From assembly GCA_051294375.1 (NCBI GenBank), contig CM119264.1:11073832-11137831 (forward strand): 64,000 nt of DNA, in the 5' to 3' direction. How positions within the stretch are numbered: position 1 is the first letter of the stretch; each line of letters opens with the position of its first letter. Below, piece after piece: positions 1 to 49,499 of this stretch. The notes below the pieces were generated by a model. That model had not been told where the DNA came from. It saw nothing but the letters and a program-made list of their open reading frames with translations, and did no database searches. The stretch is from Paraspadella gotoi (Eukaryota; Animalia; Chaetognatha). Both the position numbers and the translations under genes were made by a program.

Positions 1-325
1 AATGGCAGAACCATTGATGATGGTCCCGTTGAGGGCGGCAACGGCCTCTTCCGCATCTCGCGGATCTTCAAACTCAACGAACCCAAATCCCCCTGAAAAA
101 GTAATATGCCGCAAGATTAAGAAAAATGGTCAACATTAACTGTACAATGTACACTGTACATTGTATAAACATCAAATAAGGTACTGTACCTGGGGCTCTG
201 GCGACGAAGCAGTTTCTCAATTGACCAAATTTAGCAAACGCTTCCTCGACCTCCCTTTCCTGCGTATCGGGCTTGAGGTCACCAACGAAGACTTTACACC
301 CCGGGAGACATTCTTTTCCTGACAT
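1..325 (-). CDS. SR splicing factor, SRSF3/SRSF7 (RBP1/9G8)-like, N-terminal RRM; runs off the window's left edge
   Basis: Exon 325-~190 reads [17 protein letters not shown]...FVARAP. After a GT-AG intron (acceptor ttttcag near 94) it continues [17 protein letters not shown]. These are RNP2/RNP1 motifs plus the EFEDPRDA signature of the SRSF3/7 group. Confidence 0.85.
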
Positions 326-604
326 CTCTTTTTAACTCGTTTTTTATTGTTTTTGACGCAAATGGATAATAAATCTAAGGAATTGGTTAAGAATGAAACA
401 AAATTTTCCCTCAATAGAAATTCAAATACAGAAAAATCTAACTTGAAACCCCCAAAATAATACAGTCGTTCAATTTTTTTTTCAAAATATTTTTTTTTAT
501 CTTTCCTATGAAATTGTCTAACTGAAAATCAGAACAAGCATCTTTTCGGAGAAAATGTATTTTCAATTTCCAACACCACACTTTGCTTCTTTTGGGAATC
601 GCGA

Positions 605-1677
605 TTAAACGGATTCTAGGACGGGGGGCTCGTACCCCTCAGGCCGAGAAACGACCTCGCCCGCTGCAGTTTCCATAGCAACCGCGCCTTTCCCTTCACC
701 GTGAATCTCCAATAGCTTGCCCAGGTCAAAGCGGGGACGTTTGATGACCTGCGAAAACGAAGGCAAACAATATTTATTAATTAGTATATACTATATAGAC
801 AATATAACACTGACAAAAATACCCACCTTCACTTTCTTGATGAAAACGTCGTATAAAGGATAGATGGACTGGCAAGCCTTTTCGATATCCTTGCCGATGG
901 AATCGGGGATGAGCTTGTTTACGGTTTCCTTCAGATCGGATGAACTAACTTCCTTGGTGATGATGTCCACCATTTTTCGGCGTATGTTCTGCAATAATTA
1001 TTACTATGATGACAAACCATTCGATCTTACAACAGGCATTCTCGATTCCGGTTCGAAACTACCTTGACTTGCTGGGTTTGCGCGTAGGAAGTTTTTTTAA
1101 TCTGGTTCTGCCTTTTCTTGGTAAAGCCGACGCTGAACAGGCGAAGCAAGAACCCGTCGGTGGTTTTGACGTCGATTCTCGCTTCAATCATCGTTTGCCA
1201 CTTCTTCACCATGGACCTGTTGACAATAAAAAGCGTGTGTAACTCTGAACGTAGACATGATGCATCCAAACTAACCTCTTCTTGTCGGTGGTCAAAGTCA
1301 TCCCGTGGAAATTAGTCAGGCAATTCCTGCCTTGAACTTCCTCGCAGATGAGGCGGAACTTCCTGAAGGCGACCTCGTCGTTCTGAAGATCGGCGAGGGA
1401 AACCTCGTAGACACGACCCTTGAGACTGTCCGAAGCGATGCGAGTTCCTATGGCGGGAAAATTTAAAAAAAATTTTAAACATCGAAATACACATGAATCC
1501 CTTTATTCGGTACTCACCGGCCGTTTTGTTGACTGGGGTCTTGCAGACGCCACGGGTGTTGAACATAGCCGGCGCTCTCACGTCATACCATTCTTTCCTG
1601 GTGAAAGGATCAACGACCTTCTTTTTCTGTCCTTTTTTTCCTCCCTTGGTAAGGCGCTTGTTCTTCCCAACTGCCAT
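605..1677 (-). CDS. RPS3A: 40S ribosomal protein S3a (eS1), 5 exons
   Basis: [83 protein letters not shown]; ends PPVLESV with TAA at 605-607. Short GT-AG introns. Confidence 0.97.
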
Positions 1678-1956
1678 CTTAACTTTTAATATTTTATTTT
1701 ACCTGATAAAAATTAAAACATACATAACCATGACAACGCAACTGAATCATAAAAACCATCAAGCATTTGATTTCTAGTTTTATTTCGAATTGGGACCAAA
1801 AATTCAAACAACAGCGGCATAAACCGTCTTTTGCTGGGAATAGTTTCTCACGATTAATAGTACCAAAAAAAAATTAAAACTAAAAGTTTATAAACACGTA
1901 ACCTAAAAAATTGGTGAGTCAAGGCAAAAATGAGCTTCCGAGCCAACAAACAAGTA

Positions 1957-48666: not shown

Positions 48667-48999
48667 CGTCGAGACCTTGGGAGGTCACCGTCCATACGAC
48701 GTAACCCCCCCCCCCACGCCCTAAAATATCCCACCGACGATGCGTTTAAACTCGTAAGAGATCCGTTCTACCTTCCATGATGAAAACGTTCCTCTGAACG
48801 CCATCAATACGAATTCGAGATCAATGTGTCGACTGCCATCAATATAAAAAAATCTGAACAGGAAGCAAGGAATGTATTTTATCAATTATATATGGAAAAA
48901 ATATTTAAAAATTCTGGAATGAAGTCGGCGTTTTTTTCCCCCAGAGTTTAAAATCTTAACACTTAAACAAAAATTGCGTGCGCCATTTTCTTCGCATCT

Positions 49000-49347
49000 T
49001 TACTCGTCGTCGGGATCGGCCTTCGTATTGCGCGTGTAGATGATCTGCGCGCGATGCTTGTCCACCTGACGAATGAGTCCCTTGGCGGCCAGCTCCTTGA
49101 GGGCGAACCGTGCCAGGCTGCCGCGAATTTTGAGACGCTCCGAAACGACCGAGGGCGTGATTAGCTTGTACGACGGCACCTCTTTGTAGAGCTTGTCGTA
49201 GGTGGCCTTGTCGAAAAGGACCAAGTTGTTGAGCTTATCGCGGACCTTGCCCTTCGACCACTTCTTCTTCTTGGCCTTGCCCCCGCTGGCGCCGTCTTTC
49301 TTGGCCGGGGTCTTGGCAGATTTGCCAGCATCTTTTTTAGGCGGCAT
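49000..49347 (-). CDS. RPS25: 40S ribosomal protein S25 (eS25), intronless CDS
   Basis: MPPKKD...[59 protein letters not shown]. Confidence 0.97.
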
Positions 49348-49499
49348 CGCGAAATTGAAAATGAATTGACAACTGGGAAACGGGGGAAATTTGAGAATTT
49401 AAGATTGTAACATTAACAATGCGATTAAGAGAATCACATATGAATAAAGACAGCATTAATGCAGAAAGTCAGGGAAATGACGATAGAATCTCAATAAAA

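What the first reader, a model, noticed from the sequence alone, without database searches (positions are those of the whole stretch)
325..49374. Candidate large animal operon: co-oriented housekeeping genes, each preceded by a 3' splice acceptor (SL trans-splicing signature)
Seen: all ten genes in 64 kb are on the minus strand. Stop-to-ATG gaps are RPS25-MYCBP2 333, MYCBP2-FATP 795, FATP-TIMM50 1031, TIMM50-PORCN 303, PORCN-ACTR1 155, ACTR1-ALG3 323, ALG3-RPS3A 279 and RPS3A-SRSF 279 bp. A YAG acceptor with a T-rich tract precedes each ATG: ttcccag (RPS25, 25 nt), attttag (MYCBP2, 54), gtaatag (FATP, 17, less clear), tttgtag (TIMM50, 37), tctttag (PORCN, 47), tttatag/ttccag (ACTR1, 56/50), ttattag (ALG3, 34), ttatcag (RPS3A, 25), tccttag (SRSF, 49). 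Established: in nematodes, tunicates and flatworms, polycistronic pre-mRNAs of growth/housekeeping genes are resolved by 3' cleavage plus spliced-leader trans-splicing. Inference: this is one operon, or a chain of operons, of up to 9 genes over ~49 kb. The acceptors are not the strict C. elegans TTTCAG, so the host may be a lineage where operons and the SL RNA are undescribed.
Basis: partly seen in the sequence, partly recalled or inferred. Interest (0 to 1): 0.85.

Follow-up and report, generated by a model that had tools for sequence, protein, structure and literature searches.

The report
Arrow worm trans-spliced housekeeping operon
Nine housekeeping genes sit head-to-tail in what is likely an arrow-worm (chaetognath) genome, one of them carries the known arrow-worm spliced leader on its assembled RNA, and they likely form one or a few operons of a kind already described in these animals.

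Summary
Nine minus-strand genes (RPS25 to SRSF) have the stated gaps, and their upstream AG acceptors score above chance (P about 0.001); the MYCBP2 and FATP acceptors are weak. RNA run X1 gives direct support: the ACTR1 contig starts with 9 non-genomic bases identical to the end of the published chaetognath leader SL2, joined exactly at the predicted AG (5859). The PORCN 3'UTR contig ends on that same AG, with no AATAAA in the spacer. The closest TIMM50 relative (L001) starts with 11 bases of the same leader. Spliced contigs run unbroken through three more spacers. A leader was seen on only 1 of 9 genes, and contigs do not prove single molecules. One nine-gene unit: about 0.4. Chain of operons: about 0.45. 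The scan noted a similar layout on another genome, without RNA support. Verdict: real, new member of a known kind.

The parts
49622..49701 (-). GC/CpG-rich patch upstream of the first gene; candidate promoter of the unit (inferred)
   Evidence: 70% GC, 11 CpG in 80 nt; the eight internal spacers reach only 26-49%
49373..49374 (-). Predicted trans-splice AG of RPS25, 25 nt before the ATG
   Evidence: 8.3 bits, no donor-like site in 450 nt upstream; no RNA laid here
49000..49347 (-). RPS25, intronless CDS, 115 aa
   Evidence: Pfam PF03297 E 2.7e-45
48721..48722 (-). Predicted acceptor of MYCBP2 (weak)
   Evidence: 1.7 bits; no RNA laid here
24869..48666 (-). MYCBP2/Highwire-type E3 ligase, about 44 exons, about 5,660 aa (my ab initio model)
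   Evidence: open model; RCC1, PHR, RING domains
24091..24092 (-). Predicted acceptor of FATP (weak); stronger AGs lie 84-93 nt upstream but would include an out-of-frame ATG at 24110
12482..24073 (-). FATP-like acyl-CoA synthetase, 10 exons, 680 aa; one 8,060-nt intron holds a retroelement and the assembly gap
   Evidence: open model; AMP-binding; last three joints seen in X1
14480..19350 (+). Decayed retroelement, antisense, inside the FATP intron (bounds approximate)
   Evidence: 66% DNA identity over 537 nt to the element in the NPC1-like gene; RVT_1 only E 0.18
19382..19481 (.). Assembly gap, 100 N
11488..11489 (-). Predicted trans-splice AG of TIMM50, 37 nt before the ATG
   Evidence: 6.9 bits; the relative L001 carries an SL2 tail 38 nt before its ATG
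10209..11450 (-). TIMM50, intronless CDS, 413 aa
9953..9954 (-). Predicted acceptor of PORCN
   Evidence: 6.5 bits; X1 contig runs through unspliced
5958..9905 (-). PORCN (porcupine), 3 exons, 498 aa using the X1 joint
5859..5957 (-). PORCN 3'UTR, 99 nt, no AATAAA-like hexamer; RNA contig ends exactly at the G of the ACTR1 acceptor
5858..5860 (-). Shown trans-splice junction of ACTR1: leader tail TTGTTTAAA joined to base 5858
   Evidence: loose end; SL2 sequence
3790..5802 (-). ACTR1 (Arp1/centractin), 5 exons, 376 aa
   Evidence: all 4 joints in X1
3501..3502 (-). Predicted acceptor of ALG3
   Evidence: 4.7 bits; another AG at 58 nt scores 6.1; no leader seen in X1
1957..3466 (-). ALG3, 2 exons, 454 aa; RNA contig ends at 1778, inside an AATAAA
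1703..1704 (-). Predicted acceptor of RPS3A
   Evidence: 7.1 bits; no RNA cover
605..1677 (-). RPS3A, 5 exons, 263 aa
375..376 (-). Predicted acceptor of the RRM (SRSF-like) gene
   Evidence: 4.2 bits; no RNA cover
1..325 (-). RRM (SRSF-like) gene, runs off the window; the cluster may continue beyond
   Evidence: RRM_1 E 4.2e-6

Best explanation
This is a run of nine co-oriented housekeeping genes, likely from a chaetognath (arrow worm), in which ACTR1 receives the chaetognath spliced leader at the AG in its upstream spacer, and which is likely transcribed as one long precursor or two to three adjacent ones that leader trans-splicing would cut into single mRNAs. Shown: leader tail on ACTR1 at AG 5859; the PORCN RNA contig ends on that AG; spliced RNA contigs cross the FATP-TIMM50, TIMM50-PORCN and ACTR1-ALG3 spacers. 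Inferred: transcription starts at the GC-rich patch about 300 nt upstream of RPS25; each downstream gene gets its cap from a leader at its orphan AG; most upstream 3' ends are made by ordinary cleavage some tens to about 190 nt before that AG; at PORCN-ACTR1 there is no spacer and the trans-splicing cut itself makes the PORCN 3' end. One nine-gene unit about 0.4; a chain broken at one or both long spacers (795 and 1031 bp) about 0.45.
For: (1) X1: 2 records laid on 200-6000 at 97% identity. The 3,063-nt record begins with 9 unlaid bases that read TTGTTTAAA on the gene strand, equal to the last 9 nt of SL2 in PMC2481426 Table 3, and joins base 5858. Chance by composition 4e-5; neither of the two minus-strand copies of that 9-mer in the window is followed by a GT donor. 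(2) The 707-nt PORCN record ends at 5859, so no room is left for an ACTR1 promoter or outron outside the PORCN 3'UTR. (3) L001, the only one of 43 fetched loci close to the window's TIMM50 (81% against 54% for the next full-length match), starts with the last 11 nt of SL2, 38 nt before its ATG, against 37 nt AG-to-ATG in the window. Window, L001 and 8 unnamed proteins form a clade with SH-aLRT 100 apart from all named phyla sampled. (4) Spliced contigs cross 3 spacers without joints; no contig lay in any of the 5 ACTR1/ALG3 introns at 97%, so DNA carry-over is an unlikely cause. (5) Acceptors above chance; donor-like sites in only 1 of 9 upstream regions. (6) GC-rich patch only upstream of RPS25. 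(7) Ribosomal-protein transcripts as a set are trans-spliced in Spadella cephaloptera (passage).
Against: A leader was seen on only 1 of 9 genes. None was seen at ALG3 (one search showed all loose ends) nor, among the 12 of 286 loose ends displayed, at TIMM50 or PORCN. De Bruijn contigs across two genes do not show a single molecule, and overlapping UTRs would look the same. No contig bridges PORCN-ACTR1, and no poly(A) tail was seen at the PORCN end. Two spacers are long (778 and 994 nt from stop to AG) and could hold promoters; chaetognath genes outside operons are also often trans-spliced (about half of genes trans-spliced, 18% in operons). MYCBP2 and FATP acceptors are weak. All window RNA evidence is from one run, whose RNA status the tool only guessed (its contigs are spliced). 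No named chaetognath TIMM50, and no nematode, rotifer or gnathostomulid, was in the tree; the RPS25 tree was unresolved.
Confidence: 0.85

Rival explanations
1. The genes are trans-spliced but mostly monocistronic: each has its own promoter in or just upstream of the spacer and a short outron, in a compact genome; only PORCN-ACTR1 is co-transcribed.
For: Most trans-spliced chaetognath genes are outside operons. Spacers of 795 and 1031 bp exceed the 250-bp operon cut-off unless the 3'UTRs are long. No single-molecule evidence.
Against: RNA contigs cross three spacers, including the 1,031-bp one. Six of eight stop-to-AG stretches are 99-289 nt and must also hold a 3'UTR. Only RPS25 has an upstream GC-rich patch. 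Nine genes in one orientation.
Confidence: 0.12
2. No trans-splicing: the AGs are chance matches or close ordinary introns after non-coding first exons, and the genes are merely tightly packed.
For: AT-rich spacers give a 5-bit AG 24% of the time, and two acceptors are at chance level.
Against: Leader tail at the predicted AG on ACTR1 and on the TIMM50 relative. Only 1 of 9 upstream regions has a donor-like site, where about 75% would be expected (P about 1e-4). Contigs show no joints in three spacers.
Confidence: 0.02

Closest known systems
Chaetognath operons, genome-wide (Paraspadella gotoi; PMC12460157)
   Same: [quoted passage not shown]
   Different: The window shows no proteasome subunit, so the published nine-gene operon may be another locus or may overlap beyond the window. 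The gene list (Supplementary Table 1, xlsx) was too large to read. Whether the window is that species was not determined. The cluster holds PORCN (Wnt secretion) and MYCBP2, whereas the paper finds operons depleted of signalling and nervous-system genes.
Spadella cephaloptera RPS14-PCNA operon (PMC2481426)
   Same: Same leader family (SL2 tail); upstream 3' end almost touches the downstream acceptor (3 bases there).
   Different: Two genes there; here the contig end suggests zero bases, and the poly(A) site is not mapped.
Ciona intestinalis intercistron-less operons and C. elegans SL1-type operons (PMC1488885)
   Same: Upstream mRNA end coincides with the trans-splice AG; AATAAA missing in 16 of 18 Ciona cases, as at PORCN-ACTR1.
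   Different: Different phylum and leader. In Ciona nearly all junctions lack a spacer; here only one of eight looks so, and the others appear to keep a spacer.
C. elegans SL2-type operons
   Same: Co-oriented genes; about 100-nt intercistronic regions resemble the AATAAA-to-AG distances at ALG3-RPS3A (about 80) and ACTR1-ALG3 (about 155).
   Different: No operon-specific leader in chaetognaths. The name SL2 is shared by coincidence; the paper reports no similarity of chaetognath leaders to those of other phyla.

Membership tests
Chaetognath SL-resolved operon (PMC12460157 definition) | Two or more co-oriented neighbouring genes | tested here: met
   nine minus-strand genes
Chaetognath SL-resolved operon (PMC12460157 definition) | [quoted passage not shown] | tested here: inconclusive
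   Met for PORCN-ACTR1 (0 nt) and, using predicted AGs, ALG3-RPS3A (about 75 nt from contig end) and RPS3A-SRSF (230 nt from stop). Other stop-to-AG lengths are 256, 279, 289, 778, 994 nt with 3' ends unmapped.
Chaetognath SL-resolved operon (PMC12460157 definition) | At least one member carries a chaetognath spliced leader | tested here: met
   ACTR1, 9-nt SL2 tail at AG 5859; one contig of one run
Chaetognath SL-resolved operon (PMC12460157 definition) | Host is a chaetognath | tested here: met
   leader tail in the organism's RNA and in the nearest TIMM50 relative; indirect, since no named chaetognath TIMM50 was available
Eukaryotic operon (strict) | All downstream genes trans-spliced | tested here: inconclusive
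   seen for 1 of 8 downstream genes; contigs cannot show absence
Eukaryotic operon (strict) | One precursor molecule spans the genes | not testable with these tools
   only assembled contigs were available; they cross 3 of 8 spacers
Eukaryotic operon (strict) | No internal promoters | not testable with these tools
   only a GC-content proxy
Eukaryotic operon (strict) | SL RNA gene present in the genome | not testable with these tools
   no genome held; no Rfam hit in the window; published for Spadella
Intercistron-less (Ciona-type / SL1-type) junction, PORCN-ACTR1 | Upstream mRNA poly(A) site coincides with the acceptor AG | tested here: inconclusive
   contig ends exactly at 5859 but shows no poly(A)
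Intercistron-less (Ciona-type / SL1-type) junction, PORCN-ACTR1 | No AATAAA before the junction (Ciona type) | tested here: met
   0 of 8 hexamer variants in the spacer
Nematode SL2-type operon | Operon-specific leader on downstream genes | not tested
   reported absent in chaetognaths

The most novel reading that the evidence does not exclude
All nine genes, and perhaps more beyond the window, are one transcription unit of at least 49 kb from a single promoter upstream of RPS25. It reads through a 44-exon E3-ligase gene and an antisense retroelement, and mixes spacer-type junctions with one zero-spacer junction where trans-splicing of ACTR1 itself creates the PORCN 3' end. Output of the Wnt-secretion enzyme porcupine would then be set by trans-splicing of its neighbour, giving a side-by-side test case for the open question of how spacer-less operons form 3' ends.
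Probability: 0.3. Interest if true: 0.5.

Novelty: new member of a known kind. Interest (0 to 1): 0.28.

Why it matters
The finding shows that operon structure and a trans-splice site can be called correctly from raw DNA, but leaders and operons are already established in chaetognaths, and this locus may be in a published table. What remains of interest is the exact abutment at PORCN-ACTR1: I saw only one chaetognath junction mapped at base level in the papers read (3 nt), and how such junctions make the upstream 3' end is called unresolved in the Ciona paper. The cluster also places signalling and neural genes (PORCN, MYCBP2) among ribosomal-protein genes, against the published trend.

Tried and rejected
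No whole genome is held, so SL RNA genes and the extent of the cluster beyond SRSF could not be searched. No run on record as RNA was listed; X1 was judged RNA from its spliced contigs. RPS3A and SRSF had no X1 cover at 97%; the tool filters human-like records, so this is no evidence. RNA was never laid on 13,601-64,000, so RPS25-MYCBP2 and MYCBP2-FATP are untested. The RPS25 tree was unresolved; the best full-length named hit being Spadella (83%) was only a lead. My first gene-prediction script over-split exons and was discarded; the second mis-modelled PORCN and FATP, which I corrected from RNA joints and by hand. A 16-nt leader motif search missed L001 because only 11 nt are present. None of the 43 loci held a second window gene, so gene-order conservation is untested (output limited to 60 rows). 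Rfam found nothing. Searches for this locus in print: chaetognath+MYCBP2 gave 0 papers; chaetognath+trans-splic+porcupine gave 1 unrelated review; six gene names gave 0 hits in 3 readable supplements of PMC12460157 and five gave 0 in those of PMC2481426. The unread xlsx may list it.

Full report
Observation. The window holds ten protein-coding genes on the minus strand. Nine of them, RPS25, MYCBP2, FATP, TIMM50, PORCN, ACTR1, ALG3, RPS3A and an RRM (SRSF-like) gene, follow each other with stop-to-ATG gaps of 333, 795, 1031, 303, 155, 323, 279 and 279 bp. The tenth, NPC1-like, ends 4,541 bp upstream. Identities were confirmed by Pfam and PDB. Open exon models give 115, about 5,660, 680, 413, 498, 376, 454 and 263 aa; the MYCBP2 model is ab initio and not checked against RNA.

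Are the acceptors more than chance? I built a 20-nt acceptor matrix from 57 predicted cis introns, 9 of which match RNA joints. The best AG 15-60 nt before each ATG averages 5.6 bits. Nine random non-coding positions reach that mean with P=0.0015, and shuffled upstream regions with P=0.0004; 6 of 9 reach 5 bits against 24% expected. MYCBP2 and FATP acceptors are weak (1.7 and 2.0 bits). A donor-like site at the level reached by 75% of real donors occurs in only 1 of 9 upstream regions (FATP-TIMM50), so the acceptors are orphans (P about 1e-4 under cis-splicing).

RNA evidence. One run, X1, holds 70% of sampled words. Its contigs skip introns at canonical joints and differ from the window at few bases, so it is RNA of this or a very close organism. 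On 200-6000 at 97% identity two records lay. Record 1 (3,063 nt) covers ACTR1, the spacer and ALG3 with all five introns removed. These are the last 9 nt of chaetognath leader SL2 in Table 3 of PMC2481426. Chance by composition is 4e-5, the genomic bases there differ, and neither minus-strand copy of the 9-mer in the window precedes a donor. Record 2 (707 nt; PORCN last exon and 3'UTR) ends at 5859, the G of the same AG, with no loose end, and the 99-nt 3'UTR has none of eight poly(A) hexamers. An RNA end on the acceptor is what trans-splicing of a shared precursor would leave (inference; the same argument is made for Ciona in PMC1488885). A 4,732-nt record runs from FATP exons through TIMM50 into PORCN with both spacers unspliced. 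Its 693 bases 5' of position 13054 match the 692 expected from FATP exons on both sides of the 8-kb intron, which suggests by length only that the gene is spliced across the assembly gap.

Against. No leader was seen at ALG3, TIMM50 or PORCN; assemblers drop short side branches where a through-path exists (own knowledge), so this is neither support nor refutation. Contigs are not molecules. No poly(A) was seen at the PORCN end. RPS3A and SRSF had no cover, and nothing above 13,600 was laid. So 4 of 8 junctions have RNA support of some kind, and 1 of 9 genes has a leader shown.

Host. TIMM50's best hits are nine unnamed environmental proteins at 65-84% identity; named animals reach at most 63%. 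One of these is encoded by L001, which begins at base 1 with the last 11 nt of SL2, 38 nt before its ATG. Window, L001 and the other eight form a long-stemmed clade with SH-aLRT 100 in a quick tree of 45 rows (43 of the 120 hits were used). The best full-length named RPS25 hit is the chaetognath Spadella cephaloptera (83%), though that tree was unresolved. The assignment to Chaetognatha therefore rests mainly on the leader. The species was not determined.

Mechanism. Most likely, polymerase starts at the only GC/CpG-rich patch in the upstream regions, about 300 nt before RPS25 (a weak proxy), and reads through several genes. Each downstream cistron is capped by leader addition at its orphan AG. 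At most junctions an upstream poly(A) signal lies about 80-190 nt before the AG (only the ALG3 end is near a contig end). At PORCN-ACTR1 the two events coincide. I give 0.85 to an operon or chain of operons, split about 0.4 for one nine-gene unit and 0.45 for breaks at the long spacers; 0.12 to mostly monocistronic trans-spliced genes; 0.02 to no trans-splicing.

Comparison with what is known. PMC2481426 (passages and part of Table 3 read; supplements searched) described chaetognath leaders and an RPS14-PCNA operon with 3 bases between poly(A) site and acceptor. PMC2566580 (passages) located the SL genes in the 5S cluster. [quoted passage not shown] PMC1488885 (passages, section 17) describes spacer-less operons lacking AATAAA in Ciona. 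PMC7986045 (passages) gives intercistronic distances in nematodes and tunicates.

Verdict. A real feature, correctly read, now with direct RNA support at one predicted site. It is a new member of a known kind and possibly already catalogued. Interest 0.28; 0.5 if the single 49-kb unit with a trans-splicing-made PORCN end is confirmed.

Noticed in passing
window 54,840-59,555 (-): Decayed retroelement inside an intron of the NPC1-like gene, with inverted terminal repeats of about 170 bp, partly 100% complementary. One frame scores 0.95 to reverse-transcriptase clusters; Pfam gave no hit. The label DIRS-like is recalled from the layout and comes from no call.
   Followed up: partly
window about 14,480-19,350 (+): Related decayed retroelement, antisense to the cluster, in the 8,060-nt FATP intron next to the 100-N gap.
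   Followed up: partly
window 8,953: PORCN intron 2: the X1 joint keeps the frame open only if the intron starts TT; the assembly or allele probably lacks one G at the donor.
   Followed up: partly
window 49,000-49,347 and 10,209-11,450: RPS25 and TIMM50 have intronless coding sequences, while many other fetched animal TIMM50 loci are split into several pieces.
   Followed up: no
window 3,469-3,474: An AATAAA lies 27 nt downstream of the predicted ALG3 acceptor, inside its 5'UTR; if ACTR1 used it, the two mRNAs would overlap. RPS3A and SRSF 5'UTRs also hold one.
   Followed up: no
whole window: [quoted passage not shown]
   Followed up: no
window 24,869-48,666: The MYCBP2 model is about 5,660 aa with long Ser/Pro/Ala-rich insertions and two weak SH3_3-like matches.
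   Followed up: no
window 7,700-8,650 and 52,248-52,662: Short AT-rich interspersed repeat with very high RNA-contig depth in PORCN intron 2; similar copies are visible elsewhere in the window.
   Followed up: no
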